From positions 8,945-72,944 of the forward strand of contig JAGBBO010000006.1 in the NCBI GenBank assembly GCA_017938435.1: a DNA stretch of 64,000 bases. Direction: 5' to 3'. The translations under genes were made by a program, and so were the position numbers. Source of the DNA: Alphaproteobacteria bacterium. GTDB lineage: Bacteria > Pseudomonadota > Alphaproteobacteria > Rs-D84 > CACZYB01. This document shows positions 19,083-60,259 of the stretch, piece after piece. The notes beneath the pieces are model-generated. The model was not told the DNA's origin. It saw only the letters and a program-made list of their open reading frames with translations, and did no database searches. Positions within the stretch are counted from its first letter, which is position 1, and each line of letters starts with the position of its first letter.

Positions 19083-22034
19083 TTAATACCCTTCCTTTAT
19101 CAAATCAAGAATTGTTTCCTGATCAGTATATGGAATATTTTTTGTGCCAAATGTGACATAGTCTTCATGCCCTTTTCCAGCAACCAAAATAACATCGTCA
19201 GGTTTTGAAATTTCCATTGCCTTTTTAATAGCATCACGACGACCAGTTTTTACCTCTATCGCATTAGGGCAATGTTTCAAAATTTCATCCCTTATTTTTT
19301 GTGGATCTTCACATCTTGGCGAATCATCAGTTAATATAGGAATATCGGCATATTTATTTGCAATAGTGCCAAGTTCAAAACGACGAGTATTTGCTTCGTA
19401 AATATCACCACAAGTGCTAAATACATTTATAATTCGACCATTTTCCTTTAACATAGGGCGTATAGTTTTAAGAGTATTTTCCAAAGCTTCTCCCTTATAC
19501 GCAAAATCGACATAGATACTTGCCCCTGATTTCGTTTTTCCCATATATTCAAGACGACCAAGTGCATTTCTAACATTTCCAAGGAGTGGAATTACCCTTT
19601 CCCAATCAGGTGTTGTTGCCGCAACCATACCCAATGCACACATAAGATTGTTAAGTTGGAATGAACCAAGAATTTTTAAATCCAAATGGTATTTTTTACC
19701 AAACAATTCCACATCTGCAATTTGTCCTTCCAAACTGGTTTGTTGAGATAAAATTTTAAGTTCAGTTCCGTTTCGTCCGTATGAAAATACCCTGACGCCT
19801 CGATTATCACAAATTTGTTTTAAATAATCGTATTCTGGAACATCTGCATTTAAAACAGCAGTCCCTGTAATATCAAGATTTTCACGGAAAAGTTTTGATT
19901 TAGATTTTAAATAAGAATCATAACTTCCATAAAATTCAAGATGATCAGTTCCAAGGTTTGAAAAACCTGCGGCTGAAATTTTTATATTTTCCATACGAAG
20001 TTGATCAAGTCCATGGCTTGATAATTCAATCGCACCATGTTCAACACCTTTTTCCTTAAAATATTTCAAAAATTTGTATGCTTCACCATTACCAGGTGTT
20101 GTATGATCGGCATCACTAAACTTTACAATTTCCTTTTTACTGTAAACATTTTCCACAATCATACCTATTGTGCCGATACTTATTGTTGGGAATGAAAGCA
20201 ATCCCCAAATTTGTCTTGTAAAATCGACAATAGATGATTTTCCACTGGTTCCAGTAATTGCACAAATAACTTCGGGTTGCTTTTTATCATAGAAAGTAAA
20301 TACCAAATCAGCCAAAGCCTTTCTTGGATTTTCGGTTCTAACTATGAAAATATTTTTTTCCTTTATCAAAGACAAAGTTTTTTCATCAAATTCGTATGAT
20401 GGTTCAACGACAATAGCTTTTGCTCCTTTTTGAATAGCATCATATGAATAATTAGCACCATTTTGTGCAAATCCTTTTATACCAACAAAAATACTTCCAT
20501 CGACAATAGTTTTGGAATCACATGAAACAAGATGAATTGGTGTATCGGTCGCACCATTACATTCGTATCCTGCTTCGGAAAGAAGTTTATTTAGCGGTTT
20601 TGAAGGTAAGGCAAGTTTGTTTCTAATAAACTCTTTATCCTTTTCATACATAGTTCCACAAATTATAATTGAATCCCAATCGCGTGATGTATCAATTATT
20701 TCATTGATAGCTTCGTAACGATTTGGAATTACCCTAGCCTTTGGGCAATATTTAAGCAATGTTGAACGAATATTTTCAGGATTTTCAGTTCTTGGATTAT
20801 CATCTACAATTACAACTGTATCTGCATACTCATTTAAAACTTTACCCATTTCAATACGACGAATTTCTGGTCTATCTCCACTGCAACCAGCAATGCAAAT
20901 AAGATTATGTTTTACATGCGGTCTGAACTCGGTCAAAAGTTTTTTAAGCCCGTCACCATTATGTCCGAAATCAACAAATATTTTTGCCCCATTAGGTGTA
21001 GTTGCAACATATTCAATACGACCTTTTTCATTTTTTATATCAGAAACTTTTGAAAGTATTTTTTCCCAATCTTTATAAGATGAAATAAACATTCCAAGTG
21101 CACACATAAAATTAAATACTTGGAACTTGGTAACAAGGTTTAATGTCATATCATAAGTTTTTCCAAATATTGATAATTTTACTTGTTGTTTATCATCGAC
21201 TATTTCATATTTTTCAAGTCTGATATCGGATTGTTGATTTTCACCGTATGTTATAACTTTTATTCCCCGAGATTCACAAACATCAACAACTTTTTGTCCT
21301 TTTGCATCATCTATGTTTATTGTTGCAGTGCCATCGGAATCAAGAAGTTCAGAAAATAGACGAAGTTTTGCATTAAAGTATTCTTCGACCGTTTTATGAT
21401 AATCCAAATGATCGTTTGAAATATTTGTAAAACCAGCTGATTTTATTTTTACACTATCGGCACGATGTTGTTCAATACCATGACTGGAAGTTTCTATGGC
21501 TACATTTGTAACACCAGAAGAAGCAAGATTATCTAAATTTTTATGCAAATCAATAGCATCTGGTGTTGTTAAAGTTTTTCCACCTACACCATCAGGAGTA
21601 TGAATACCAACTGTTCCAATAGATGCAGATTTAAGATCAATAAATTCCCACATCTGACGAATAAAGTTTACAACTGAACTTTTTCCATTTGTTCCTGTTA
21701 CTGCACAAATAAATTCTGGTTGATTAGGGTAAAAATTACTTGCAATAATAGATTCAACTAAACGAATATTATCTACAAATATAAATGGAATATGTTGATA
21801 TTTTTTAATATCTATATAATCTTTGTTTTCTTTATTAGTAAGGATAGCAACAGCACCCAAATTTATTGCATCATCAATGAAATCAGCACCATTAACTTTT
21901 GTTCCTTTTACTGCAATAAAAAGACTACCTTTATTAACTTTTGATGAATTATTTTCAACAGAGGTTATATCTAAATCCAAATTTTTATTTTCTATTTCAT
22001 AAGAAATATTATTTAATAATTCTGAAAGTAACAT
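19083..22034 (-). CDS. murE: Tandem Mur-ligase fusion protein, 983 aa: MurE-like N-half (DNPR motif) and MurE/MurF-like C-half (DSPR motif)
   Basis: Two complete Mur ligase modules, each with a P-loop (TGTNGKSS / TGTSGKSS), an SSHG motif (ETSSHGIEQHR / ELSSHGLDQLR), a DHLD/DHLE motif and a C-terminal DDNPRTENP / DDSPRCEDP motif. Confidence 0.8.
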   Translation of the reverse strand: MLLSELLNNISYEIENKNLDLDITSVENNSSKVNKGSLFIAVKGTKVNGADFIDDAINLGAVAILTNKENKDYIDIKKYQHIPFIFVDNIRLVESIIASNFYPNQPEFICAVTGTNGKSSVVNFIRQMWEFIDLKSASIGTVGIHTPDGVGGKTLTTPDAIDLHKNLDNLASSGVTNVAIETSSHGIEQHRADSVKIKSAGFTNISNDHLDYHKTVEEYFNAKLRLFSELLDSDGTATINIDDAKGQKVVDVCESRGIKVITYGENQQSDIRLEKYEIVDDKQQVKLSIFGKTYDMTLNLVTKFQVFNFMCALGMFISSYKDWEKILSKVSDIKNEKGRIEYVATTPNGAKIFVDFGHNGDGLKKLLTEFRPHVKHNLICIAGCSGDRPEIRRIEMGKVLNEYADTVVIVDDNPRTENPENIRSTLLKYCPKARVIPNRYEAINEIIDTSRDWDSIIICGTMYEKDKEFIRNKLALPSKPLNKLLSEAGYECNGATDTPIHLVSCDSKTIVDGSIFVGIKGFAQNGANYSYDAIQKGAKAIVVEPSYEFDEKTLSLIKEKNIFIVRTENPRKALADLVFTFYDKKQPEVICAITGTSGKSSIVDFTRQIWGLLSFPTISIGTIGMIVENVYSKKEIVKFSDADHTTPGNGEAYKFLKYFKEKGVEHGAIELSSHGLDQLRMENIKISAAGFSNLGTDHLEFYGSYDSYLKSKSKLFRENLDITGTAVLNADVPEYDYLKQICDNRGVRVFSYGRNGTELKILSQQTSLEGQIADVELFGKKYHLDLKILGSFQLNNLMCALGMVAATTPDWERVIPLLGNVRNALGRLEYMGKTKSGASIYVDFAYKGEALENTLKTIRPMLKENGRIINVFSTCGDIYEANTRRFELGTIANKYADIPILTDDSPRCEDPQKIRDEILKHCPNAIEVKTGRRDAIKKAMEISKPDDVILVAGKGHEDYVTFGTKNIPYTDQETILDLIKEGY

Positions 22035-23360: not shown

Positions 23361-23395
23361 AAAATCCCCGTTTTGAATTTCGGGGATTTTTATTT
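23361..23395. terminator. Bidirectional terminator (aaaatccccg-ttttgaattt-cggggatttt)
   Basis: GC-clamped hairpin flanked by A-run and T-run between convergent alr and ctp. Confidence 0.75.
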
Positions 23396-24826
23396 TATTT
23401 TTTAGAAGGCTGTTTAGTATTTATAGCAGGTTGTTTTGATGGCTTTTTTACTTCTGGTTTTTTAACTGGTTTCACAGAAGAAAATCTTTCACCATAAATT
23501 GCCAAACCCTTTACCATATCAACAGCACGATTAAGTTGATAATCGTTTTTATCGCGTTCTTCTTCAATCTTTTCACGCTCTGCCTTTGCATCTTTTTTAA
23601 TGATTGATTTTGTATCATTTTTAAGAGCATTAGTCAAAGTTTCCTCAGAGAACATTCTATCTTCTTTTACTTCTTCAATTTTTGCACGATTGACTTCGAC
23701 ATCAGGTTCAATACCATCAGCTTGGATTGAACGACCACTTGGAGTATAATATCTTGCAGTAGTAATTTTAAGAGCTGTATCCCCAATAGGAATCAATGTT
23801 TGAACAGAACCTTTACCATAAGATTTTGTTCCAATTAAAACTGCACGGCGATGATCTTGCAATGCTCCAGCAACAATTTCCGCAGCCGATGCAGAAGCTC
23901 CATTTATAATCACAACCAATGGTTTATTATCCAATATATCCCCTTCTGATGCAAAGAAAACACGGCTGGCATTTTCTTGGCGTGACATAATAGAAACAAT
24001 TTCACCCTCAGATAAAAAGGCATCTGAAATCTTAACTGCTTGATCAAGAAGTCCGCCTGTATTATTTCGTAAATCAAGAACGAAACCAATGACCTTTGGA
24101 TTTTCTGATTTTATTTTTTTTATCGCCTTTATCATATCATCATAGGAATTTTCATTAAATGTAGAAAGACGAATATAACCAACAGAATTGTCAGCCTTCA
24201 TCTTTGATTTAACCGGTTCCGTGCGAATAATATCACGGGTCACAACAATATCAAGAGGTTCAGAATTTTCGCGGAAAATTTTAAGTTTTACTTTTGTCCC
24301 TGGTTTACCCTTCATACGCTTAATTGCCTCTTGTAATGATAAACCTTGAACTTGGACATCATCAATATGAGTGATTAAATCCCCTGCTTCGACACCAGCC
24401 TTAAAAGCAGGACTATCATCAAGTGGAGAAATAACTTTTATAACACCTTTATCCATTGTGACCTCAATACCAAGACCGCCAAACGAACCAGATGTTTGTT
24501 CATTCATAGAATTAAAATCTTCTTCATTTAAAAAACTTGAATGAGGGTCAAGTTTGGAAAGCATTCCATCTATGGCTCCTTCTATCAACTTTTTATTATC
24601 GACATCATCAACATAGCGAGTTTTTGTTATTTCAAATGCACGACCAAAAAGCTCAAGCATTTCGTAAACATCTGAATCCTTTTTAGTTGATACTTTTTTT
24701 TCATTTTTCGATGCTGCACCTGTCAATTTTGATGATGAAATTTCATAAGAAACAATAGAGGCTATAAAAAATACAAATGCCAATGTTGTTAATAATTTTG
24801 TAAATGAAGAATGTTTTTTAGCCATA
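23395..24826 (-). CDS. ctpA: Carboxy-terminal processing protease (S41) with PDZ domain. Start chosen at the internal ATG (MAKKHSS...) preceded by AGGAG
   Basis: S41 motifs (...GGLGIEV... PDZ region; ...NNTGGLLDQAVKISD...; ...SASAAEIVAGALQD...). Signal-anchor N-terminus. Ribosome-binding site AGGAG 8 nt upstream of ATG at 24826. Confidence 0.85.
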
Positions 24827-24897
24827 AGTAATCTCCTTTGTTTTATATAATTAAAACATAAAATAAACCAAAATTGCAACAATTATTGATTTATTTC

Positions 24898-50523: not shown

Positions 50524-52911
50524 TTACTTATCGCGAAGTATTCCTCCAAGTTTAACAACTGAATTTATTGCGGAATTGAAGATTACATTGATTTCATCTT
50601 CGGTCAAAGTCTTATCTTTTTGTTCAATAGTTATATGAACAGCAACTGATTTTTTATCAGAATCAAGTTTTTCGCCCTTGTAAATATCAAAAATCACAGC
50701 GTCTTTTATATACTCTTTATTAGAGTTTTTAACTGCATTTAAAATATTTCCAGCAGGCACAGTATCATCAATAATGACTGCAAAATCACGATTGATTGGT
50801 AAGAAATCAGAAATAGTTAATTTCTTTTTGGCTGTTCCTTTTGATTTTGATTCTGGCATTAAATCAAGATTGATTTCAAACGCAACAACATTTGCATTTT
50901 TTATGCCGAACTTTTTAAGTGTAAGTGGGTGAATTTCACCAACATAACCAATAACTTTATTTGCAAAAATTATACTTGCACTTTTATATGGATTAAGCCA
51001 CGATGGCAAGTCCTTTGTTTCAAATTTTACACTAGATGCATTTACTCCGAATACTGAAAGAACTGCAAATACATCATTTTTTACATCATAAAATGATGGA
51101 AGTTTTGCCGAATTTGCCCAATCTTTTACACCAGACAAACCTTGTCTTATACCTGCAACACTGGTATTTTGTTCGGTTGGTTTATTGCCATAAAATACTG
51201 GTCCAATTTCAAACAAGTTTGATGTCATAATTGAGCGAGAAAGATTTGCCTTTACCCCATCAAGAAGATTTGGAATTATACTTTGACGCATAACATTCAA
51301 ATCAGATGCAATAGGGTTAATAATTTTTATACTTTCCTTTACATCAAATTCTTTTTTATCACTCATAAATGACCAAGTATAAACTTCGGTAAGGCCACGA
51401 GAAGCAAGTGTGCGTGGAAGTTTTGTTTTGTGAATGATTTTTGTATCGACAACTTTTTCATCACCTTCTGGTTTTACGGAAACAGCAGGAAGTTTTTCAA
51501 AACCATATACACGAACAAGTTCTTCGGTAATATCTGCTTTACCTTCTAAATCCTGCCTATATGATGGAGGAATGATAGATAAAATTTCACCATTATCACT
51601 AACCTTACAACCAAGGTTTGAAAGAATTGTTATCATATCAGTTTTAGGAATATCAAAACCGACACGCTTTGCAAAATATGATACTGGGAAATCTATTGTA
51701 TATTCCTTGAATTCACATTTTCCAGTTTTACAAATTTCAGATGCTTCTCCACCACAAATTTCAAGAATTTTATTTGTTGCAAATTCCATTCCCCAAACTG
51801 TGCAACATGGATCAATTCCGCGTTCAAATCTTGCTTTTGAATCGGATTCAATTTTTAGTTGTCTTGCAGTTTTTCTGATTACAACTGGATTAAAATATGC
51901 AGATTCAAGAAGCACATTTTTTGTTTCCATTGTGCAAGAGGTTGCAAGTCCACCCATTACACCAGCCAAACTTTGGATACCGTTATCATCTCGAATAACA
52001 ATATCGCCAGCATTTAGGATATAAGTATTACCGTCAAGAGCAATAAATTCTTCGCCACCCTTTGCATAATCGACAACCAATTTTCCCTTTATCTTATCAG
52101 CATCAAAAACATGAAGTGGACGATTTAAACTATGCAAACAATAATTTGTAATATCAACTAATGCAGAGATTGAATTCATTTCAACCGAAGATAAATAGTC
52201 AACAAGCCATTTTGGTGATGGGCCGTTTTTTACATCTTTGATATACCTTGTATTAAATTCGTGTGCATCAGCAGTTGCATTATTTTCAACTGTAATTGGA
52301 CTTTTGAATTTAGCCTTTACTTCATTTATTTCTGGCATTAAAAGTTCACCGAAACCACCAGCGGCTAAATCACGAGCGATACCCAAAACTCCAAGGTAGT
52401 CAGGATGATTTGGCAAAACATTACCATCATAAATAACATCAAGATTGTATATTTTTGAAAGTGCAGAAATGGCACTATCCCCAGCCTTTACATCACTTGG
52501 CAATTCAATAATACCATCGTGATTATCGCCAAGTCCAAGTTCCTTTTCTGAACACATCATACCGTTTGACTCGCGACCACGAACCATTCCTTTTTTAAGT
52601 TTTGTTCCATCAAGAGGAATAATATTTCCTGGGCGTGCAAGAATACCCTTTAAACCCTTTCTTGCATTTGGTGCACCACAAACAACATTCAAAATTTCAG
52701 TTCCAATATTTACTTTTAAAAGATGAAGATGATCGCTGTCTGGATGATTTTCACATTCAACAATTTCACCAACGATAAAGTCAGCAAGCGGAGCCTTCAT
52801 ATCCTTTACATCTTCTATTTCCAAACCAAGCATAGTTAGTTTGTTTGCAATTTCATCAGGAGTAAGTTCTGTTTTTAAATATTTTTTTAATTGATTATAT
52901 GTGAATAACAT
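50524..52911 (-). CDS. pheT: Phenylalanine--tRNA ligase beta subunit
   Basis: 795 aa. tRNA-binding N-terminal domain, B3/B4, and a C-terminal FDX-ACB domain. Immediately downstream of pheS. Confidence 0.9.
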   Translation of the reverse strand: MLFTYNQLKKYLKTELTPDEIANKLTMLGLEIEDVKDMKAPLADFIVGEIVECENHPDSDHLHLLKVNIGTEILNVVCGAPNARKGLKGILARPGNIIPLDGTKLKKGMVRGRESNGMMCSEKELGLGDNHDGIIELPSDVKAGDSAISALSKIYNLDVIYDGNVLPNHPDYLGVLGIARDLAAGGFGELLMPEINEVKAKFKSPITVENNATADAHEFNTRYIKDVKNGPSPKWLVDYLSSVEMNSISALVDITNYCLHSLNRPLHVFDADKIKGKLVVDYAKGGEEFIALDGNTYILNAGDIVIRDDNGIQSLAGVMGGLATSCTMETKNVLLESAYFNPVVIRKTARQLKIESDSKARFERGIDPCCTVWGMEFATNKILEICGGEASEICKTGKCEFKEYTIDFPVSYFAKRVGFDIPKTDMITILSNLGCKVSDNGEILSIIPPSYRQDLEGKADITEELVRVYGFEKLPAVSVKPEGDEKVVDTKIIHKTKLPRTLASRGLTEVYTWSFMSDKKEFDVKESIKIINPIASDLNVMRQSIIPNLLDGVKANLSRSIMTSNLFEIGPVFYGNKPTEQNTSVAGIRQGLSGVKDWANSAKLPSFYDVKNDVFAVLSVFGVNASSVKFETKDLPSWLNPYKSASIIFANKVIGYVGEIHPLTLKKFGIKNANVVAFEINLDLMPESKSKGTAKKKLTISDFLPINRDFAVIIDDTVPAGNILNAVKNSNKEYIKDAVIFDIYKGEKLDSDKKSVAVHITIEQKDKTLTEDEINVIFNSAINSVVKLGGILRDK

Positions 52912-52923
52912 TTTTAATTCTCC

Positions 52924-53985
52924 TTATTTCTTACTTAAATCTGTAATCATATTTGGTATATCATCAGCTTCGAAACCATAATGTGAAAGCCAGCGAGTAT
53001 CAGTTTCAAAACATTTTCTCATATCTGGAATACCGTATTTTAACATAGTCAATCTTTCGATACCCATACCGAATGCGAATCCTTGGTATTCATCAGGATC
53101 AACACCAACAGCCTTTAACACATTTGGATGAACCATACCACAACCCAAAATTTCAAGCCAACGATTACCGTTTGCACCAATCTTTAATTCACCGTTTTGT
53201 AAACTACAACGAATATCCATTTCCGCAGATGGTTCGGTAAATGGGAAATAGCTTGGTCTGAATTGTGTTGGAACATCATCTACTTCGAAAAATGCTTTTA
53301 AAAAGTCAATCAAACAACCTTTAAGATGACTCATATTGATATTTTTATCGACATACAAACCTTCGATTTGGTGGAACATAGGTGTATGAGTTGCATCCCA
53401 ATCACTTCTGTAAACACGACCCATTGTAATAACCTTAACAGGCACACCGGTTCTTTCCATTTCACGAATTTGAACAGATGAAGTTTGTGTTCTTAATAAA
53501 TTTCCGCCTTCGACAAAGAATGTATCTTGCATTGAACGAGCAGGATGAAATGGAGGAACATTAAGTGCAGTAAAATTATGAAAATCATCTTCTATATCAG
53601 GATCATTGGCAGATACCAAACGAAAACCAAGTGAACCAAAAATTTGCAATAATTCTTCACGAACTTGTGTAAGTGGGTGGATATGCCCCTTGCTATCTTC
53701 TGCTTTATTCAAAGAGACATCAATTTTATCACTTTCCAATTTTTTATTTATTTCAGAAAGTTCAAGGATTGATTTTTTTGTATCCATAGCAGAAATTATT
53801 TCTGTTTTAATTTGGTTAAGTTCAGCACCCCTAACCTTTCGTTCATCAGGTGTCATTTTTCCAAGTTCACGAAGGGCAAGCGATAAAGAACCAGATTTTC
53901 CCAAAACCTCGACATTCAAACTTTCCAATTCAGATGTAGAAGTTGCCTTTTCAATTTTTTCTAATATTTCATTTTTATCTATCAT
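52924..53985 (-). CDS. pheS: Phenylalanine--tRNA ligase alpha subunit
   Basis: Class II aaRS motifs (...FHPARSMQDTFF..., ...RSDWDATHTPMFHQIEG..., ...GFAFGMGIERLTMLKYGI...). Confidence 0.9.
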   Translation of the reverse strand: MIDKNEILEKIEKATSTSELESLNVEVLGKSGSLSLALRELGKMTPDERKVRGAELNQIKTEIISAMDTKKSILELSEINKKLESDKIDVSLNKAEDSKGHIHPLTQVREELLQIFGSLGFRLVSANDPDIEDDFHNFTALNVPPFHPARSMQDTFFVEGGNLLRTQTSSVQIREMERTGVPVKVITMGRVYRSDWDATHTPMFHQIEGLYVDKNINMSHLKGCLIDFLKAFFEVDDVPTQFRPSYFPFTEPSAEMDIRCSLQNGELKIGANGNRWLEILGCGMVHPNVLKAVGVDPDEYQGFAFGMGIERLTMLKYGIPDMRKCFETDTRWLSHYGFEADDIPNMITDLSKK

Positions 53986-55117
53986 TTGTATTATCCAATA
54001 TTATATTATTGTTATTATTTTGTTTGTTTAAAATCTTATCAGAAGCATTTTCAAATTCCAATGTTTTTATTATATTTTCAGAATTTATTATACTACATTT
54101 TCTACCACAAATTTCTTTTTCTAATCCTGTTTTTATTGCAATATCAAAGAATTTTTCAGGTGTAATTTCTGGAAACGAGTTTTTTGCAACAGCATAAATA
54201 CCAGCAAGATATGGAACAGCCCAACTCATACCTCCATCACTATAATATGTATAATCTTCATTTCCTATTGGAGATGCCACAGTTACCCTATCTTGTGGAA
54301 CAATAAGTGTATTTTTTGTATCAGAATTTTTATTGTTCGAAGATAAATTTCTTTTTTGAATAAAAAGTGGTTCTTTGTATTCCTGTGGATTATCTAAATT
54401 ATTGTTGATATTTCTATCCCCACCTATAAAGCTAAAGTTATGAGTTTTTTCAAGAGATGTCGTAATAACAAAAATATCCGATTCTTGTGCCTTTTGCATT
54501 ATATCTAACAATCTTTTTTCTTGTTCTTTATTTTCCGTTGGAATAGCATAGGAAATTGAAAGCGTATGAATTTTATTTTCTGGATGTTCTTCATTATATT
54601 TAATAACTCTATCTATCGCATTTATATAATTGTCAGTATTTGTATCAGAAACGCAAAAATATACAAGTTTTGCATCTGGTGCGACACCAATATTTTTACC
54701 ACATAAAATAGAAGAAACAGCAATACCGTGTTGCGATGCCTCATTTGACCAAGATTTATGCTCATCAACCTCTTCATAATGGATAAGTTTGTCTTTTATT
54801 TCATTATGTGTAGTAAGTAATGGTTGATCAATAATTGCAACGGTTGCACCTTTACCAGTATATCCCTTTTTATGCAAAGCATTTATTCCAAGACCTCGAT
54901 TTTTTGCAACTTCTAATCTTTCAGTAAATTTAGAAGCAATAGAAGATAGAAATTTTGTTTTTGAATTAAATAAAAATTGTTCTAAAAATTCGGATGAAAG
55001 TAATTTATCCCAATCATAATTATTTTGCGAAATGTCAAGGCTACGAAAATCATATGCACTACTTCTTTCTGAAAGAGGCTTTACATAATTTAAAGGTTGT
55101 ATTTTTGTATCTATCAT
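53975..55117 (-). CDS. Subtilisin-like (S8) serine peptidase homolog, no signal peptide
   Basis: Catalytic-triad-like motifs in S8 order: Asp (GATVAIIDQP), His (HGIAVSSI), Ser (GGMSWAVPYLAG). Inserted between rplT and pheS, overlapping the pheS start by 11 nt. Confidence 0.55.
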   Translation of the reverse strand: MIDTKIQPLNYVKPLSERSSAYDFRSLDISQNNYDWDKLLSSEFLEQFLFNSKTKFLSSIASKFTERLEVAKNRGLGINALHKKGYTGKGATVAIIDQPLLTTHNEIKDKLIHYEEVDEHKSWSNEASQHGIAVSSILCGKNIGVAPDAKLVYFCVSDTNTDNYINAIDRVIKYNEEHPENKIHTLSISYAIPTENKEQEKRLLDIMQKAQESDIFVITTSLEKTHNFSFIGGDRNINNNLDNPQEYKEPLFIQKRNLSSNNKNSDTKNTLIVPQDRVTVASPIGNEDYTYYSDGGMSWAVPYLAGIYAVAKNSFPEITPEKFFDIAIKTGLEKEICGRKCSIINSENIIKTLEFENASDKILNKQNNNNNIILDNTNDR

Positions 55118-55135
55118 TTGTATTCCTTACATTTC

Positions 55136-55170
55136 TAAAAAAATAAAAGAGCTTGTTTCCAAGCCCTCTT
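55136..55170 (-). terminator. Rho-independent terminator after rplT (aagagggcttg-GAAA-caagctctttt + ttttattttttt on the minus strand)
   Basis: 11-bp stem with a GNRA tetraloop and T-run, about 20 nt upstream of the S8 peptidase start codon. Confidence 0.7.
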
Positions 55171-55213
55171 ATTATAATACTTTTTCAATGAATATGCAAA
55201 CCATATCCGAGGG

Positions 55214-55579
55214 CTATTTAGCTTCTCCGATAAATCGTTTTGCATTTTCAACAACAACCTTGAATGCATCAGCATCACGAACAGCCATATCAGCCAATAC
55301 TTTTCTATCAAGAGTGATGTTTGCCTTTGTCAAAGCATTTATGAATTCTGAATATGTAATTCCGTATGCACGAACAGCAGCATTGATACGAGCAATCCAC
55401 AAAGATCTGAAATTAGATTTGTTTTTCTTTCTATCACGGTATGCATATTGCAAACCTTTTTCAACGCGTTCATGTGCAATACGATAGCAAGAAGAGCTAC
55501 GACCACGGTATCCCTTTGCCATTGATAATATTTTTTTATGTCTTTGTCTTTTTGTAAGACCTCTTTTTACACGTGCCAT
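55214..55579 (-). CDS. rplT: 50S ribosomal protein L20
   Basis: [18 protein letters not shown]...AYRDRK... is the canonical L20 sequence. Confidence 0.9.
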
Positions 55580-55593
55580 TTTTTAAACTCCTA

Positions 55594-55797
55594 TTATTTC
55601 ATACCATAAGGCATTGATCTTGCTACTATTTTTTTGTCGCTTCCTTCAAGGTATTGACCATGAATTGCTTCTGTTAATGATCTTGAAGATTTTCTTCTCA
55701 TAAAGTGATTATGTCCAGCGCGACTTGTTTTAACTTTACCACTAGCGGTCAAGCGAAAACGAAGTTTAAAAGCACTTCTTGTTTTTAATTTTGGCAT
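55594..55797 (-). CDS. rpmI: 50S ribosomal protein L35
   Basis: [14 protein letters not shown]...[10 protein letters not shown]... is canonical L35. Confidence 0.85.
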
Positions 55798-56044
55798 TTT
55801 AACTCCTTTTAATTTAGGTTAAACAAACAGCAGACAGGCAGCCAATTTCAAGCCCGTTCTACCAAAGATAGCAAGATTTATACATCTTTTTCCCGTGTTT
55901 GTCAAGCATTTTTCTGACTTTTATATCATAGGTTCTAAAAGTAATCCAAAAAATTCAAACAAGCGTTTGATTGATTTTTATTTAAGGCAAAAACAGTGAA
56001 AATTTTTCAAACTTTTTATCATTATTAAAAAAATCCCACTACTA

Positions 56045-56080: not shown

Positions 56081-57454
56081 TTATCTGACATCTTCATCCT
56101 GTTTTAAACGCCCAATTACCGGAGTCTTTCTCCCCTTAATGGCAAGTTTTTTCGAACCTTCATCAAACATTGACTTTTTATGCATAACTTTGCTGAAAGA
56201 AAGATTTTCTTTTTCTTCAAGTTCTTTAAAGTTAATGTTATTTAAATTGTTATTATAATTAACAGCCTTTTTCTTTAAGTTTAATATTTCATCTTTATAC
56301 ATAGTCAAAATTTTTTCTATAGAATTTCTATTTGATATTATTTTTAACAACATATCTTCAGAAAAAGTTAAAGGAACATATTTATCATATTTCCATTTTA
56401 ATGTCTTAGAATATTCTGAATTATATTTTTTCCAACAATTATCATTAAACTTTTTATCATATTCATCCTTGTAGGATATAAATTTATTTACAGTATCATA
56501 TACATACTCTTCTTTTAAATCAAAGTTTTTCATTATTTCTTTTCTTGCTTCAGGATAATTTTCATAAACATATGTATAAAGCCCAATATTTTCAGGATAT
56601 TCAATTTTTTTGATTTCATACATTTTATCACTTATATTAGAGAAAAGAATATTACTAAGTTCAGTTAAAGTTTGATTATAGTCTTTGTTTAAATATTTAT
56701 TATTATAAACATTTGGAAATTTAATATCTACATAACTAAAACTCTGGTCATAATAACCTTTAATTCTATCTTGATAAGAATCTGCAGATAAGTATCCTTC
56801 TTTAATTAAAGGTCTTTCTTTTAATTTTTCATGCAAATCATAATATGTATTAATAAATTCTTTAGAAACCCCAATATCCATTGTTTTAAATTGAAAATTT
56901 TTAAGGAAAAATTGTTCTGGAGGAACATTCTTAGCTTCATTAAACAAGATAACATTTCTTTTCATATTTTCTAAACTATGTTTATTTATTTTGCTAATTT
57001 GTTTTTCTTCACGTAATTTTTTAAGTGTTTCAGCATCATGTCTTAAATCCACAAAAAGTTCAGAACATTTTTTTATCAAAGGCAAGATAGTATCTTTATA
57101 GTATTTTTTATCTTCAGTTATTGTAGGAGTAAGTTTTTTCTTAATATTTTTATCTACATAATCCAAATGCTTTTTAGCTGTTATATTAAAATCAATCGCA
57201 TTTTTAATTTTAAATCCATATGGAATAGCATCTTTTAGTTTAGAAGATAAATCTGCTAAAGGATAAATAGTATTTGGTACCCGTAGACTATTATATCCAC
57301 TTCTTTCTGCTAATCTATCCATTTCATTTAAATGTCTTCTTAAAGTTTTTTTAACTTCAATACCAAGTTCTTTTCTAACACTGTTAGGCATTGGAGTATT
57401 ATCTGCTTCTCTTATTCTTCTCTCAATTTCTTTTTGAATATCCTTTTTATCCAT
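56081..57454 (-). CDS. Hypothetical Lys/Tyr-rich protein (457 aa from MDKKD...) with a basic C-terminal tail
   Basis: Ribosome-binding site AAGGAG 7 nt upstream of ATG at 57454. Own terminator. No recognisable domain. C-terminus ...KKLAIKGRKTPVIGRLKQDEDVR. Confidence 0.5.
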   Translation of the reverse strand: MDKKDIQKEIERRIREADNTPMPNSVRKELGIEVKKTLRRHLNEMDRLAERSGYNSLRVPNTIYPLADLSSKLKDAIPYGFKIKNAIDFNITAKKHLDYVDKNIKKKLTPTITEDKKYYKDTILPLIKKCSELFVDLRHDAETLKKLREEKQISKINKHSLENMKRNVILFNEAKNVPPEQFFLKNFQFKTMDIGVSKEFINTYYDLHEKLKERPLIKEGYLSADSYQDRIKGYYDQSFSYVDIKFPNVYNNKYLNKDYNQTLTELSNILFSNISDKMYEIKKIEYPENIGLYTYVYENYPEARKEIMKNFDLKEEYVYDTVNKFISYKDEYDKKFNDNCWKKYNSEYSKTLKWKYDKYVPLTFSEDMLLKIISNRNSIEKILTMYKDEILNLKKKAVNYNNNLNNINFKELEEKENLSFSKVMHKKSMFDEGSKKLAIKGRKTPVIGRLKQDEDVR

Positions 57455-57697
57455 TTTTTTCTCCTTTTTATAAAAAATAAACAAAACCACAAAAGTGACT
57501 GGAAGCTAGAAACTATGTAAGATAGTGCGTATTATTTTGCTGAAAGATACTTGCAGCATTATTCTACTGCCTTCCAGCCAAAACGCCAGAAAGCGTGTAA
57601 ATTTTTTGTCCTTACACTATGGACACTTACATAGGCTTCTAGACCCAATATCTATAATATCATATTTTCAAATAAAATAAAAGATTTTTTTCAAACT

Positions 57698-58787
57698 TTA
57701 TTTCTTTATATTATTATAAAGTAGCGTTGCAGAAAGGAACTCATCAATATCACCGTCAAGGGTAGATGTAATATTTGATGTTTCAAAATTTGTTCGTAAA
57801 TCTTTTATCATTTGATATGGTTGAAGGACATAGGAACGAATTTGTGCACCCCAACCTATTTCAGATTTTGATTCGTTGATTTTTGCCTCCTCCTCGGCAC
57901 GCTTTTCAAGTTCAAGATTATATAAGCGAGATTTAAGCATACTCATGGCAACATCTTTGTTTTTAAATTGCGACCTTTCGTTTTGGCATTGAACGACAAT
58001 CCCTGTTGGAATGTGTGTAATACGAACAGCACTATCGGTTTTATTGACATGTTGACCGCCGGCACCACTTGCACGGTAAGTATCAATTCGTAAATCTTTT
58101 TCTTCTATATGAATTTCAATTTTGTCATCAATAACCGGATAGACCCAGACAGAGGCAAAACTTGTGTGACGACGAGCATTACTATCAAATGGTGAAATAC
58201 GAACCAAGCGATGAATACCACTTTCACCCTTAAGCCAACCATAAACATTTATACCAGTAATTTGTAATGTCGCAGATTTTATACCTGCCTCATCCCCAGC
58301 ATGCTCCTCAATCAAATCAACCTTATACCCATGGCGTTCACCCCAGCGGATATACATACGAAGAAGCATTTGTGCCCAATCGCATGCCTCGGTTCCACCA
58401 GCACCACTGTGAATTTCAAGGTAGGCAGGAAGATTATCAGCCTCCCCGTTCAACATAAGATTTAATTTTTCCTTTTCAAGACTTGATACAAAATTTTCAA
58501 GTTGAATTTCAGTATCGGAAACCAAATCCGAATCATTTTCAAGTTTTGCTAAATCCAAAAGTTCATGAAGATTTTCGTATTCTTTTTTCTTTGTTTCATA
58601 AAGATTGATTTTACGCTCCACCTCTGCCTTTTGCGACATAAGTTTTTGGGCAAAATCAGGATTATCCCACAAATTAGGAGATGAAGTTTTTTCCTCTAAT
58701 TCCTTTAATTCATTGGTTAAAGAGGAGATGTCAAAGACACCCCCTAATTTCTGATAATAAACTTTCTATTTTTCCAAAATCAACCAT
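57698..58787 (-). CDS. prfB: Peptide chain release factor 2, expressed via a programmed +1 frameshift: complement(join(57698..58732,58734..58787))
   Basis: Frame 0 is MVDFGKIESLLSEIRGCL, ending at the CUU UGA C shift site (58736-58730, minus strand). An AGGGGG Shine-Dalgarno-like element lies 3 nt upstream. The +1 frame continues DISSLTNELKELEEKTSSPNLWDNPDFAQ... into the RF2 body, including SPF and GGQ (SGAGGQHVNKT). Confidence 0.85.
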
Positions 58788-60259
58788 TATTCAACAACCT
58801 TTAAACAATCAGAAGCATAAGTCATCAATGATTTATTCTTTTTTATTTCTATTTTTGAAAGTTTATCAAACTCTCCATCAGAAGTAAGCATCAAAACCTG
58901 ACAGTTATTTGAATTATCTTTTATAACAAAAGTATCACCTTCTGCAAGATTACTTATTACTTCATAAAGCCCAGCATCAGTTGTGCTTACACGACCGCCA
59001 AGACCAGTTATCACTGCATAATCTATATCATCTTGTGTTTCAGTGGAACCGATATCACCAGTTGAAATAATATTCAAAAGACGAGCACGAGCTTTGTTAA
59101 TACTTGAAACATCTTCTATTACATAGACATTTGAAATATTTTCAAGATTTTTAATTTGTGGTGTTGTATCACCGTATGTTTTTGAATTTCTGATAACAGA
59201 TTTTGCTATTGTTTTACCTAGATTATTAGGATCTGTAGCATCAAGTTGTTTGTAAAATTTGCCTGAAGTTGCAGGAACCAAAACAACGCCATTTTTTGTT
59301 GGAGCAATAGCGACAGAGCCTGTTTTTACAAAGTTACCAGCACGACGACCAAGGTTTGAAGCAACTTCGGAAGCAAAACTATCTTTTGCCTTGGATAAAA
59401 TATTTTCGCGCTTATCTTCGGTAAATTGATTAAGTTCAAGAATATCATAACTTTCTTCACCACAATTTTGTCTTGCATCATAAATATATCCCGCAAGAAC
59501 AGCTTCGATAGCACTTCTCCAATTTCCAGATTTATTTGTGAATTGTAAAGTTGAATAATTTTCAAGAAGTTGTGGAATATTGGAAAGTCCCATATCCCCA
59601 GCATTTGAAAACTTTTTTGCAACCTCTGGAATTTCACCGCATGATGTCATCATTAAATCATCAAATTCAAAGAAATTTCCATCATGAGCGATAGCGGCCG
59701 CATAACATTTTTTAGCAGCGGTAAGTCTTTTTGTTGCAAGGATACATTCACTTGAACCTTTGATTGCTGACTTTTCAATTATACCCTTTGATGAAAGCCA
59801 TTTATCAAGAGCATATCCCTTATAAGTATCACATTTTGATTTATAAGTCACAAAATTATCTACACCAACTATGTATGATAATTGCATATCCATAATATCG
59901 TAGTAATCAGCCATAGTTTTATCACTACAATCCGCATATGCACCACCACTTTGGACACGATTTGTGTTATAACATTCCCTATCAAGTCCAAGCATATACT
60001 TTGTTGCACAATCATCTTGAGAATACTGAGTTTCACTAGTTGTCGTTGTAGAAGTAGAAGTAGAAGTTCTTTTTGAAGATTTACGTCTTGAAGAGGAAGA
60101 AGAGCGACGATCTGTTGATATAGAAGTAGAGGTTCTGGAAGATAAAGCCTTTCTTTCACCTTCTAATTGATCAATTATTTCATCAGCCGAAAACGCCACA
60201 TTTGTAATAAATGTAAGTGGAACTAAAGCAAGTAATAAAGTCTTGTATGATATCTTCAT
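58787..60259 (-). CDS. Secreted protein (490 aa) with a Ser/Arg/Thr-rich low-complexity N-terminal region. Its stop overlaps the prfB start (TAATG)
   Basis: Signal peptide MKISYKTLLLALVPLTFITNVAFSA. About 45 aa of SR/ST low complexity. 12 Cys. Confidence 0.5.
   Translation of the reverse strand: MKISYKTLLLALVPLTFITNVAFSADEIIDQLEGERKALSSRTSTSISTDRRSSSSSRRKSSKRTSTSTSTTTTSETQYSQDDCATKYMLGLDRECYNTNRVQSGGAYADCSDKTMADYYDIMDMQLSYIVGVDNFVTYKSKCDTYKGYALDKWLSSKGIIEKSAIKGSSECILATKRLTAAKKCYAAAIAHDGNFFEFDDLMMTSCGEIPEVAKKFSNAGDMGLSNIPQLLENYSTLQFTNKSGNWRSAIEAVLAGYIYDARQNCGEESYDILELNQFTEDKRENILSKAKDSFASEVASNLGRRAGNFVKTGSVAIAPTKNGVVLVPATSGKFYKQLDATDPNNLGKTIAKSVIRNSKTYGDTTPQIKNLENISNVYVIEDVSSINKARARLLNIISTGDIGSTETQDDIDYAVITGLGGRVSTTDAGLYEVISNLAEGDTFVIKDNSNNCQVLMLTSDGEFDKLSKIEIKKNKSLMTYASDCLKVVE

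What the first reader, a model, noticed from the sequence alone, without database searches (positions are those of the whole stretch)
53975..55117. Cytoplasmic S8 (subtilisin-like) peptidase gene inserted into the conserved rpmI-rplT-pheS-pheT operon
A 380-aa ORF lies between rplT and pheS, which are universally adjacent. It has D/H/S motifs in S8 order (AIIDQP, HGIAV, GGMSWAVP) but no signal peptide. It begins about 20 nt after the rplT terminator hairpin, and its last codons overlap the pheS start by 11 nt. pheST expression is therefore now translationally coupled to a lineage-specific gene. The N-terminal about 100 aa and the C-terminal Asn-rich tail are unrelated to secreted subtilases. 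It could be a degenerate protease homolog, an intracellular effector or an inserted selfish gene.
Basis: partly seen in the sequence, partly recalled or inferred. Interest (0 to 1): 0.55.

Follow-up and report, generated by a model that had tools for sequence, protein, structure and literature searches.

The report
Subtilisin-like protease gene inserted before pheS
A real, conserved gene for a divergent subtilisin-type protease with no export signal was inserted long ago between the ribosomal-protein gene rplT and the Phe-tRNA synthetase genes in a group of gut and rumen Alphaproteobacteria, by an event that duplicated the pheS ribosome-binding site and start; this is an evolutionary curiosity, not a new kind of system.

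Summary
A 380-aa ORF lies on the minus strand at 53975..55117, between rplT and pheS. It hits Pfam Peptidase_S8 above threshold, has an invariant Asp97/His130/Ser298 triad, folds confidently as a subtilisin (pLDDT 91), has no N-terminal hydrophobic segment, and overlaps pheS by 11 nt.

New findings:
- The order rpmI-rplT-S8-pheS-pheT, with the same 11-nt overlap, is conserved in at least 8 metagenomic lineages (S8 identity 47-80%). One further lineage has a frameshifted S8.
- The protein belongs to a widespread uncharacterised S8 subfamily. Most members carry lipoprotein or membrane anchors. The signal-less forms are one derived branch, which includes other gut Alphaproteobacteria where the gene sits elsewhere.
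- The insert is flanked by a direct repeat of the pheS translation-initiation region (17 nt exact here, 27 nt in a relative). S8 therefore starts on a copy of the pheS start and reads through the second copy.
- pheS keeps its own unstructured Shine-Dalgarno, so coupling is possible but not obligatory.
- rplT and pheS are not universally adjacent: 12 of 67 outgroup loci have gaps of 500 nt or more, the ones with clear ORFs holding unrelated genes.
- The rplT-S8 spacer holds a conserved terminator, a co-varying stop-adjacent complement and a conserved TATAAT.

Moderate-to-low interest.

The parts
53975..55117 (-). S8 (subtilisin-like) peptidase ORF, 380 aa
   Evidence: ORF list; PF00082 47.3 bits; AF2 pLDDT 91 / pTM 0.91; Foldseek top hits are subtilisins, TM (target-normalised) about 0.71
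54827..54829 (-). Codon of catalytic Asp97 (AIIDQP)
   Evidence: Invariant in 90 family sequences; aligned to BPN' D32
54728..54730 (-). Codon of catalytic His130 (HGIAV)
   Evidence: Invariant in 90 sequences; aligned to BPN' H64
54224..54226 (-). Codon of catalytic Ser298 (GGMSWAVP)
   Evidence: Invariant in 90 sequences, followed by Trp in 89 of 90; aligned to BPN' S221
55108..55124 (-). Direct repeat copy 1: AATACAAATGATAGATA, covering the spacer and first codons (MID) of S8
   Evidence: Only two exact copies in the window; 0.10 matches expected with up to 2 mismatches; alignment of the two start regions
53976..53992 (-). Direct repeat copy 2: the same 17-mer, covering the spacer and first codons (MID) of pheS; it also encodes the last residues (..NTNDR*) of S8
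   Evidence: relatives show the same paired start regions (27 nt identical in L011)
53975..53985 (-). 11-nt overlap ATGATAGATAA: pheS codons 1-4 and the S8 stop TAA; stops in both alternative frames
   Evidence: Sequence read; the same overlap in L004, L008, L010, L011, L012, L175
53994..53996 (-). pheS Shine-Dalgarno core GGA, inside the S8 tail codons, 8 nt before the ATG
   Evidence: Sequence; (A/T)GGA conserved upstream of pheS in all relatives; the region is unstructured, z=-0.01
55124..55128 (-). S8 Shine-Dalgarno AAGGA, 6 nt before the ATG
   Evidence: Sequence; AGGA/GGAA conserved upstream of S8 in relatives
55142..55173 (-). Intrinsic-terminator-like hairpin (14 pairs) followed by a U-run, between rplT and S8
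   Evidence: z=-3.2; hairpin plus T-run conserved in all 9 lineages with compensatory changes
55209..55214 (-). Segment 1, GCCCTC, abutting the rplT stop codon; complementary to the 5' arm of the terminator (GAGGGC, 55163..55168). Candidate antiterminator
   Evidence: RNAalifold consensus helix: 54 of 54 cells paired, 3 pairs with compensatory changes; duplex -12.8 to -15.4 kcal/mol against about -3 for random 16-mers
55171..55200 (-). Promoter-like site TTTGCA-18-TATAAT; its -10 hexamer sits just 5' of, and overlaps, the terminator stem
   Evidence: Consensus scan 10/12; TATAAT (TGnTATAAT in several lineages) is the best conserved block of the spacer. Function not shown
55214..55579 (-). rplT (L20)
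   Evidence: ORF; orthologues hit PF00453
52924..53985 (-). pheS
   Evidence: ORF; orthologues hit PF02912/PF01409
50524..52911 (-). pheT
   Evidence: ORF; orthologues hit tRNA_bind/B3_4/B5/FDX-ACB

Best explanation
The ORF encodes a functional, divergent S8A subtilase with catalytic Asp97-His130-Ser298. It belongs to a widespread but uncharacterised subfamily with the motifs IIDQPL, MHG, GGMSW(A/S)xPY and a conserved ~50-residue N-terminal module. In most phyla this subfamily is a lipoprotein or membrane-anchored extracytoplasmic protease. A derived branch, found in gut Alphaproteobacteria, lost the N-terminal anchor.

In the ancestor of one rumen/gut alphaproteobacterial clade this signal-less gene was inserted once, immediately in front of pheS. 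The event duplicated about 27 nt of the pheS translation-initiation region (SD + ATGATAGATAAAAA). S8 therefore starts on the upstream copy (Met-Ile-Asp...). It has no stop of its own, reads through the downstream copy and ends at the TAA formed by pheS codons 3-4.

It is co-transcribed with pheST. Transcription comes either from the conserved TATAAT in the rplT-S8 spacer or by read-through of the rplT terminator, which has a co-varying, stop-codon-adjacent competitor segment.

pheS can be initiated from its own accessible SD. Ribosomes terminating 8 nt downstream of the pheS ATG may also re-initiate there, so coupling is facultative.

Shown: gene, fold, triad conservation, synteny, repeats, overlap.
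Inferred: proteolytic activity, cellular location, transcription pattern, coupling.
For: Domain and fold:
- PF00082 above threshold.
- PDB sequence hits are subtilases, best an intracellular serine protease, 7y6m, E=1.7e-9.
- AF2 pLDDT 91; Foldseek hits subtilisins.
- D/H/S aligned to BPN' D32/H64/S221 and invariant in 90 homologues.

Selection and age:
- dN/dS is 0.18-0.54, against 0.08-0.19 for pheS.
- GC, GC3 and codon usage are like the neighbouring genes.
- The ORF stayed intact although direct repeats flank it.

Synteny:
- rpmI-rplT-S8-pheS-pheT occurs in P0004, P0005, P0007, P0008, P0011 and P0012, always with the 11-nt overlap; the short P0002 contig shows the rplT-S8-pheS-start junction only.
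- S8 is absent from 67 outgroup rplT-pheS loci.
- The 39% homologue P0013 lies beside groES/EL. P0041 and P0045 lie in other contexts.

Family:
- Lipoprotein or TM N-termini in P0016, P0019, P0022, P0032, P0063, P0073, P0085 and P0087.
- The NJ tree places the signal-less forms as one branch.

Repeat of the start region.

Regulatory spacer.

pheS start region is unstructured.
Against: - No biochemical data exist for any member of this subfamily.
- The canonical oxyanion-hole Asn (BPN' N155) aligns to a non-conserved position, E223 here. The nearest candidate, position 221, is Asp/Ser/Asn in only 65 of 90 sequences.
- S8 evolves 2-3 times faster than pheS. One lineage carries a frameshift, and the P0009-P0011 branch is strongly diverged. 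The gene may therefore be dispensable in some lineages.
- dS is near saturation, so the dN/dS values are rough.
- Absence of a Sec/Tat-type N-terminus does not prove a cytoplasmic location.
- The promoter is only a conserved consensus match.
Confidence: 0.68

Rival explanations
1. Catalytically weakened or non-proteolytic subtilase homologue (pseudo-enzyme, binding protein or chaperone-like) kept for a non-hydrolytic role, or slowly decaying.
For: - The canonical oxyanion Asn is not conserved.
- dN is raised relative to pheS and rplT.
- There is a frameshift in the RUG13061 lineage.
- P0011 gives only a 'faint' Pfam hit.
Against: - Asp, His, Ser and the GG-x-S-W-x-x-P motif are invariant or nearly invariant in 90 sequences from many phyla, which is not expected of a pseudo-enzyme.
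- The ORF is intact in 8 of 9 lineages despite an AT-rich, stop-prone genome.
- dN/dS is below 1.
Confidence: 0.15
2. Exported protease or effector that leaves the cell by a route not needing an N-terminal signal (type I, IV or VI secretion, or vesicles). It would keep the extracytoplasmic role of the rest of the family.
For: - About 55 of 90 family members carry lipoprotein or TM anchors, so the ancestral site of action is outside the cytoplasm.
- The signal-less alphaproteobacterial homologues lie in accessory contexts, one beside an integrase/Fic island.
Against: - No secretion genes lie next to it in any locus, and there is no conserved neighbour across 80 loci.
- The C-terminal tail is just the translated pheS leader and varies in length.
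- The window shows an ordinary free-living gene set.
Confidence: 0.2
3. Selfish or recently mobile gene cassette that targeted the pheS start; the flanking direct repeats are its target-site duplication.
For: - A 17-27 nt direct repeat flanks the insert.
- Homologues occupy varied loci in other Alphaproteobacteria.
Against: - No transposase, integrase or inverted repeats are present.
- The gene is inherited with the locus across lineages with saturated pheS dS.
- Composition is fully host-like.
- The repeat is far longer than usual target-site duplications and consists of the host's own SD and start.
Confidence: 0.05
4. The long ORF is kept mainly as a translated leader that sets pheST expression by obligatory translational coupling, and the protein itself is secondary.
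For: - The 11-nt overlap is conserved in all intact lineages.
- The S8 stop lies 8 nt after the pheS ATG.
- The two start regions appear to evolve in concert.
Against: - The pheS SD is conserved and the region is unstructured.
- The frameshifted lineage terminates S8 150 nt before pheS, yet pheS is intact there.
- Triad conservation shows that the protein sequence is under selection.
- The overlap is a by-product of ATGATAGATAA.
Confidence: 0.07

Closest known systems
Classical secreted subtilisins (MEROPS S8A: BPN', Carlsberg, savinase)
   Same: Same fold (Foldseek TM about 0.7 on the target). Same D-H-S order, and alignable catalytic residues. Pfam PF00082 member.
   Different: No signal peptide and no I9 propeptide. 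An extra conserved ~78-residue N-terminal region. DQP instead of DSG/DTG after the Asp. Trp instead of Met after the Ser. Oxyanion Asn155 not conserved. Only 15-21% identity.
Intracellular subtilisin proteases (ISPs) of Bacillus and relatives (e.g. PDB 7y6m, 7xr8)
   Same: S8A proteases without a signal peptide. Best PDB sequence hit (7y6m, E=1.7e-9).
   Different: No LIPY/F-type N-terminal inhibitory motif can be read in the first 30 residues. The score is only marginally better than for secreted subtilisins. The phylogenetic neighbours are anchored extracytoplasmic enzymes, not ISPs. The loss of the signal is an independent event.
Uncharacterised 'S8 family serine peptidase' or 'S8/S53 family peptidase' lipoproteins of Bacillota, Chloroflexota, Patescibacteria, Planctomycetota and others (P0016-P0120)
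   Same: True family: 29-39% identity over 80-90% of the length, E 1e-28 to 1e-51. Shared N-terminal module and motifs.
   Different: Those proteins carry lipoprotein, TM or CPBP-fusion N-termini, and none was found at rplT-pheS. The window protein has no anchor and is embedded in the pheST operon.
E. coli rplT-pheM-pheST arrangement (leader-peptide attenuator between rplT and pheS; textbook knowledge, not tested here)
   Same: A translated ORF and a terminator lie between rplT and pheS. Alternative RNA pairings upstream of pheS are plausible here too.
   Different: pheM is a 14-codon Phe-rich leader. Here the ORF is a 380-codon enzyme gene with ordinary Phe content (15 of 380). No leader peptide is conserved in the spacer. 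The candidate antiterminator abuts the rplT stop codon instead.
Mycosins (type VII secretion S8 proteases, TIGR03921)
   Same: Weak similarity over the catalytic domain (33 bits).
   Different: Far below the 278.75-bit cutoff. No TM anchor and no ESX genes. Not a member.

Membership tests
Peptidase S8 (subtilase, PF00082) | Domain-model match above the curated threshold | tested here: met
   47.3 bits against a gathering score of 21.8, residues 88-330
Peptidase S8 (subtilase, PF00082) | Catalytic triad in the order Asp-His-Ser, alignable with subtilisin D32/H64/S221 | tested here: met
   D97/H130/S298 by hhalign; invariant in 90 homologues
Peptidase S8 (subtilase, PF00082) | Subtilisin alpha/beta fold | tested here: met
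   AF2 pLDDT 91, pTM 0.91; 306 PDB matches with E<=0.001, top hits subtilisins
Peptidase S8 (subtilase, PF00082) | Oxyanion-hole Asn (BPN' N155) | tested here: inconclusive
   hhalign puts N155 on E223, a variable column. Position 221 is D/S/N in 65 of 90 sequences. A two-residue register shift cannot be excluded without coordinates
Peptidase S8 (subtilase, PF00082) | Triad residues within catalytic geometry in 3D | not testable with these tools
   Model coordinates are not exposed; only confidence and secondary structure are returned
Intracellular subtilisin proteases (ISP) | No signal peptide | tested here: met
   Highest hydropathy in the first 60 residues is 0.47
Intracellular subtilisin proteases (ISP) | Short N-terminal extension with a LIPY/F motif that blocks the active site (feature recalled from the literature) | tested here: not met
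   The N-terminus MIDTKIQPLNYVKPLSERSSAYDFRSLDIS has no LIPY/F. Instead there is a ~78-residue family-specific module
Intracellular subtilisin proteases (ISP) | Specific phylogenetic affinity to ISPs | tested here: not met
   The nearest relatives are anchored S8 proteins of many phyla. The ISP hit is only E=1.7e-9, close to those of secreted subtilisins
Mycosin (TIGR03921) | Equivalog model score above cutoff | tested here: not met
   33 bits against 278.75
Translationally coupled overlapping gene pair | Upstream stop overlaps or lies next to the downstream start, with the SD inside the upstream ORF | tested here: met
   11-nt overlap, with GGA 8 nt upstream of the pheS ATG inside the S8 codons; conserved in 6 further lineages
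Translationally coupled overlapping gene pair | Downstream translation depends on upstream translation (for example a sequestered SD) | tested here: not met
   No structure around the pheS start (MFE -5.6, z=-0.01). The frameshifted lineage separates the S8 stop from pheS by 150 nt. Actual dependence needs an experiment
Mobile element or cassette | Mobility genes, terminal inverted repeats, or the same cassette at other sites | tested here: not met
   None in the window or in 9 orthologous loci. Only a direct repeat of the host's pheS start region

The most novel reading that the evidence does not exclude
The rplT-S8-pheS junction could be a small, undescribed regulatory module with two parts.

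(a) A leaderless, ribosome-position-sensing attenuator. The segment abutting the rplT stop codon (GCCCTC) competes with the terminator 3' arm for the 5' arm. A ribosome finishing rplT would then decide whether transcription reads through into S8-pheST.

(b) Two copies of one translation-initiation sequence, kept alike by conversion or by selection for a shared trans-acting regulator. This would tie a signal-less, cytoplasmic S8 protease with a non-canonical oxyanion hole stoichiometrically to Phe-tRNA synthetase.
Probability: 0.12. Interest if true: 0.6.

Novelty: new member of a known kind. Interest (0 to 1): 0.33.

Why it matters
The finding shows how a foreign enzyme gene can be built into one of the most conserved bacterial gene neighbourhoods without disturbing it. 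The host's own ribosome-binding site and start codon were duplicated, so that both the new gene and pheS have one.

It also flags a large, uncharacterised subtilase subfamily with unusual active-site surroundings, and a branch of it that has lost its export signal.

For annotation, it warns that rplT-pheS adjacency is not absolute. About 18% of sampled outgroup loci have a gap of 500 nt or more there.

None of this changes current understanding of subtilases or of pheST regulation unless the side observations, the stop-adjacent antiterminator and the concerted start regions, prove functional.

Tried and rejected
- Conserved partners of the S8 subfamily: all-against-all clustering of ORFs in 80 genome loci found none. 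The best real cluster occurs in 8 of 80 loci; the larger ones are antisense artefacts.
- Defence-system and phage libraries gave only generic subtilase or protease hits.
- Rfam at gathering threshold and at E<=1 over 53800..55900 gave nothing. There is no T-box, L20 leader or known attenuator model.
- A leader peptide in the rplT-S8 spacer: a 10-codon ORF (MVCIFIEKVL) exists in the window but is not conserved, for example it has no ATG in L176. Rejected.
- SD sequestration at pheS: rejected.
- Paralogues of S8 in the window: none.
- Close relatives in the JGI metagenome collection via pheS: only outgroups at 57% identity or less were returned. The boundary of the insertion clade could not be mapped, and precise-excision variants could not be searched for.
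- Literature searches for this arrangement, for the gut alphaproteobacterial clade and for pheST/rplT attenuators returned nothing specific.
- An obligate-endosymbiont lifestyle, prompted by the Rickettsia sRNA47 hit, is not supported. The hit lies antisense within a CtpA-like gene, and the window encodes full cell-wall and rod-shape machinery.
Full report
OBSERVATION. The reported ORF exists exactly at 53975..55117, on the minus strand (380 aa, ATG start). On that strand the gene order is rpmI (55797..55594), rplT (55579..55214), the ORF, pheS (53985..52924) and pheT (52911..50524). The neighbours' identities follow from their translations and from the Pfam families of the orthologous genes in related contigs. 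The window is 30.9% G+C, so stop codons are frequent and a 380-codon open frame is not a chance event.

THE PROTEIN.
- Pfam Peptidase_S8 matches residues 88-330 at 47.3 bits against a cutoff of 21.8. NCBIfam gives only a sub-threshold mycosin hit (33 against 278.75 bits).
- Against PDB sequences the best hit is an intracellular serine protease (7y6m, E=1.7e-9). Secreted subtilisins follow at E 1e-7 to 1e-5.
- A profile of 90 family members aligns to subtilisin BPN' with 98.4% probability. It puts D97, H130 and S298 on D32, H64 and S221. These three residues, plus G296 and P302, are invariant in all 90 sequences, and W299 occurs in 89 of 90.
- AlphaFold2 with that alignment gives mean pLDDT 91 and pTM 0.91. 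Foldseek against the PDB returns subtilisins, with TM about 0.71 on the target and about 0.53 on the query because of the extra N- and C-terminal parts.
- The canonical oxyanion Asn155 aligns to E223, a variable column. The nearest plausible substitute, position 221, is Asp, Ser or Asn in 65 of 90 sequences.
- There is no N-terminal hydrophobic stretch: the Kyte-Doolittle maximum is 0.47 in the first 60 residues.

THE FAMILY. The database search found 138 relatives, and a genome scan found 318 encoded relatives in many phyla: Bacillota, Chloroflexota, Patescibacteria, Elusimicrobiota, Planctomycetota, Verrucomicrobiota, Bacteroidota and Alphaproteobacteria.
- Reading the N-termini shows that most are lipoproteins or membrane-anchored. 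Examples are P0019 '...ILLSGCSV', P0022 '...WLVACGIS' and P0032 '...LVGSCAAP'. P0073 and P0085 have TM segments, and P0067 and P0080 are fused to a CPBP membrane protease.
- The ~50 residues before the catalytic core (D.R..DLS....L....FDS.T.WP...F.P...LE.GKNPGLGI..LH) are conserved throughout.
- In a neighbour-joining tree the forms without an anchor make one derived branch. The window clade is sister to other signal-less proteins from gut Alphaproteobacteria (P0013, P0014, P0028, P0041, P0045, P0054). The export signal was therefore lost before the gene arrived at rplT-pheS.
- No gene is a conserved neighbour across 80 loci. Defence and phage libraries add nothing.

THE INSERTION.
- rpmI-rplT-S8-pheS-pheT, or as much of it as the contig holds, is found for P0004 (59% identity to the window protein), P0005 (54%), P0007 and P0008 (50-51%), P0011 (48%) and P0012 (47%); for P0002 (80%) the 1.4-kb contig shows only the rplT end, S8 and the pheS start. 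It is also found in the MAGs CACZYB01 (RUG13061, rumen), CAKQHZ01 (Hadza gut) and JAAVBO01.
- In every lineage with an intact S8 whose contig reaches pheS, the overlap with pheS is 11 nt.
- pheS in these lineages is 74-90% identical to the window's and S8 is 45-80% identical. pheS synonymous divergence is near saturation (dS about 0.7-1.8). S8 dN/dS is 0.18-0.54, against 0.08-0.19 for pheS. S8 composition (28.3% GC, GC3 13.4%) and codon usage match the neighbouring genes.
- This describes an old, vertically inherited, selected but fast-evolving gene.
- In the more distant signal-less homologues the gene lies elsewhere: beside groES/EL (P0013), near an integrase/Fic island (P0041), and between an efflux operon and hypothetical genes (P0045).
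- Among 67 outgroup loci (pheS 49-57% identical) none has S8 between rplT and pheS. 55 have a gap under 310 nt. 12 have a gap of 500-2400 nt; the clearer ORFs there encode unrelated proteins, for example a repeated 166-171-aa protein, a 141-aa deaminase-like protein, a 292-aa protein and a histidine-kinase-like protein. The junction is usually tight but is a recurrent place for insertions, so 'universally adjacent' overstates the case.

HOW IT WAS INSERTED.
- The S8 start and the pheS start share an exact 17-mer, AATACAAATGATAGATA (55124..55108 and 53992..53976). These are the only two exact copies in the window, and 0.10 matches are expected even when two mismatches are allowed. Both proteins begin Met-Ile-Asp.
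- The same pairing is seen in relatives. In L011 the two start regions are identical over 27 nt (ATAGGAAATGTAAATGATAGATAAAAA). L175 carries that same sequence in front of S8. L008 and L012 share TATAGGAATGGAA at both places.
- Non-inserted homologues (P0013, P0014) end about 8-10 residues earlier than the window protein. The last ~10 codons of S8 (..NIILDNTNDR*) are thus the translated downstream copy of the pheS ribosome-binding region.
- The simplest reading (inference): a start-less and stop-less S8 segment was joined in frame after about codon 4 of pheS, and about 27 nt of the pheS initiation region was duplicated so that pheS kept an SD and a start.
- ATGATAGATAA contains TGA and TAG in one alternative frame and TAA in the other. 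Any upstream frame must therefore end within 11 nt of the pheS ATG, and the conserved overlap is a consequence of the conserved pheS N-terminus.
- The two copies seem to have been homogenised at times. The window's nearest relative L176 has AACGGAA before the S8 ATG, as does L001. The window has AATACAA, three changes that all match its own pheS copy. With sequences this short the point is only suggestive.
- Direct repeats of 17-27 nt flanking 1.1 kb would allow precise excision, so long-term retention argues that the gene is useful (inference).

EXPRESSION.
- Between rplT and S8 (96 nt) there is a 14-pair hairpin plus U-run at 55173..55142 (z=-3.2). It is conserved with compensatory changes in all nine lineages.
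- Directly 5' of it lies TATAAT, which is TGnTATAAT in several lineages. In the window, a TTTGCA hexamer sits 18 nt upstream of it. This is the most conserved block of the spacer. A start about 7 nt downstream of it would fall inside the 5' arm of the hairpin. Transcripts from this putative promoter would then lack a full terminator (inference).
- The six bases abutting the rplT stop codon (GCCCTC, 55214..55209) are complementary to the hairpin's 5' arm (GAGGGC). In L175 and L010 the equivalent bases lie inside the last rplT codons.
- RNAalifold picks this long-range helix as the consensus. All 54 cells pair, and three of six pairs show compensatory CG<->UA changes. No shuffle out of 500 reaches the observed covariation score, and slid registers score lower.
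- Duplex energies are -12.8 to -15.4 kcal/mol, against about -3 for random 16-mers.
- This is the anatomy of a terminator/antiterminator choice in which a ribosome sitting on the rplT stop would mask the antiterminator strand. That mechanism is a hypothesis. There are only about three independent sequence states. The same stop-adjacent complement occurs in only 3 outgroup loci (L123, L161, L172).
- No Rfam family matches, and no leader peptide is conserved.
- At the S8/pheS junction the RNA is unstructured (z=-0.01). pheS keeps a GGA 8 nt before its ATG in every lineage.
- In the RUG13061 lineage, S8 carries a 1-nt deletion (GAAAAATTCTTTGAT to GAAAATTTTTTGAT) in four independent assemblies. 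The annotated product ends 150 nt before an intact pheS.
- Together these results make translational coupling facultative at most.

VERDICT. It needs three corrections:
- The gene is an old resident under selection, not a recent or selfish arrival.
- Its 'odd' ends are explained: the N-terminal module is family-wide, and the end of the tail is the translated pheS leader.
- Coupling is not enforced.

It is a new member of the S8 family, within an uncharacterised subfamily, in an unusual but explicable genomic setting. The unexplained parts are the missing canonical oxyanion Asn, the cellular location, the apparent concerted evolution of the two start regions, and the co-varying stop-adjacent segment.

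Noticed in passing
window 55209..55214 with 55163..55168 (minus strand); also L176, L001, L004, L175, L012, L008, L010, L011: The six bases abutting the rplT stop codon are complementary to the 5' arm of the downstream terminator. They co-vary with it across lineages (GCCCTC/GAGGGC, GCCTCT/AGAGGC, GCCCCT/AGGGGC). This is a candidate antiterminator that a ribosome terminating on rplT would cover.
   Followed up: partly
window 55171..55176 (TATAAT) and the aligned columns in 8 related loci: A perfectly conserved -10-like hexamer (extended TGnTATAAT in several lineages) sits immediately 5' of the terminator stem. Transcripts started there would lack most of the 5' arm.
   Followed up: partly
window 55108..55130 compared with 53976..53998; L176, L001, L008, L012, L011, L175: The S8 and pheS start regions look homogenised within genomes. 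The window S8 copy differs from its closest relative at three positions, all matching its own pheS copy. L008 and L012 share GGAATGGAA at both sites. This points to gene conversion or to a shared constraint.
   Followed up: partly
L001 5960..5990 (also L002, L003, L013): The RUG13061-lineage S8 has a 1-nt deletion that creates T_TTT_TTG, a -1 slippery-like heptamer. The downstream 57 codons are still open, 92% identical over 38 aa, and run to the normal NDR* end. This is either a very recent pseudogene or recoding.
   Followed up: partly
L093, L095, L107, L108, L115, L122, L124, L127, L138, L159, L162, L170: Twelve of 67 outgroup loci have gaps of 500-2400 nt between rplT and pheS. The clear ORFs in them encode unrelated proteins, including a shared 166-171-aa protein in L159/L162, a deaminase-like ORF in L093 and a sensor-kinase-like ORF in L107. 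The junction is a recurrent insertion site.
   Followed up: partly
window 58787..57698 (minus strand), site at 58736..58730: prfB (RF2) carries the classical programmed +1 frameshift site CTT TGA C, preceded by an AGGGGG SD-like element. Its ATG overlaps the stop of the upstream gene (TAATG).
   Followed up: yes
window 19083..22034 (minus strand): A 983-aa ORF with two complete sets of Mur-ligase domains: an apparent MurE-MurF-type fusion.
   Followed up: no
window 16139..17860 (plus strand): A 573-aa protein that fuses a family-2 and a family-8 glycosyltransferase domain.
   Followed up: no
window 23769..24072 (plus strand): An Rfam 'Rickettsia sRNA47' hit (64.7 bits, cutoff 60) lies antisense inside the S41/CtpA-like protease gene 23395..24882(-). 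It probably reflects conservation of the coding sequence and not an sRNA.
   Followed up: partly
window 56081..57490 and 58787..60259 (minus strand): Two large ORFs flank the rpmI-rplT and prfB genes: a 469-aa Lys-rich ORF, and a 490-aa ORF with an N-terminal signal-like segment and a Ser/Thr-rich linker. Neither has a Pfam match. The region upstream of rpmI differs in every related contig, and infC is not adjacent.
   Followed up: no
L006 1..2486: In the genome carrying the 39%-identical S8 homologue, microvirus-like genes (Phage_F capsid, Rep) lie next to groEL. This may be an integrated Microviridae prophage.
   Followed up: no
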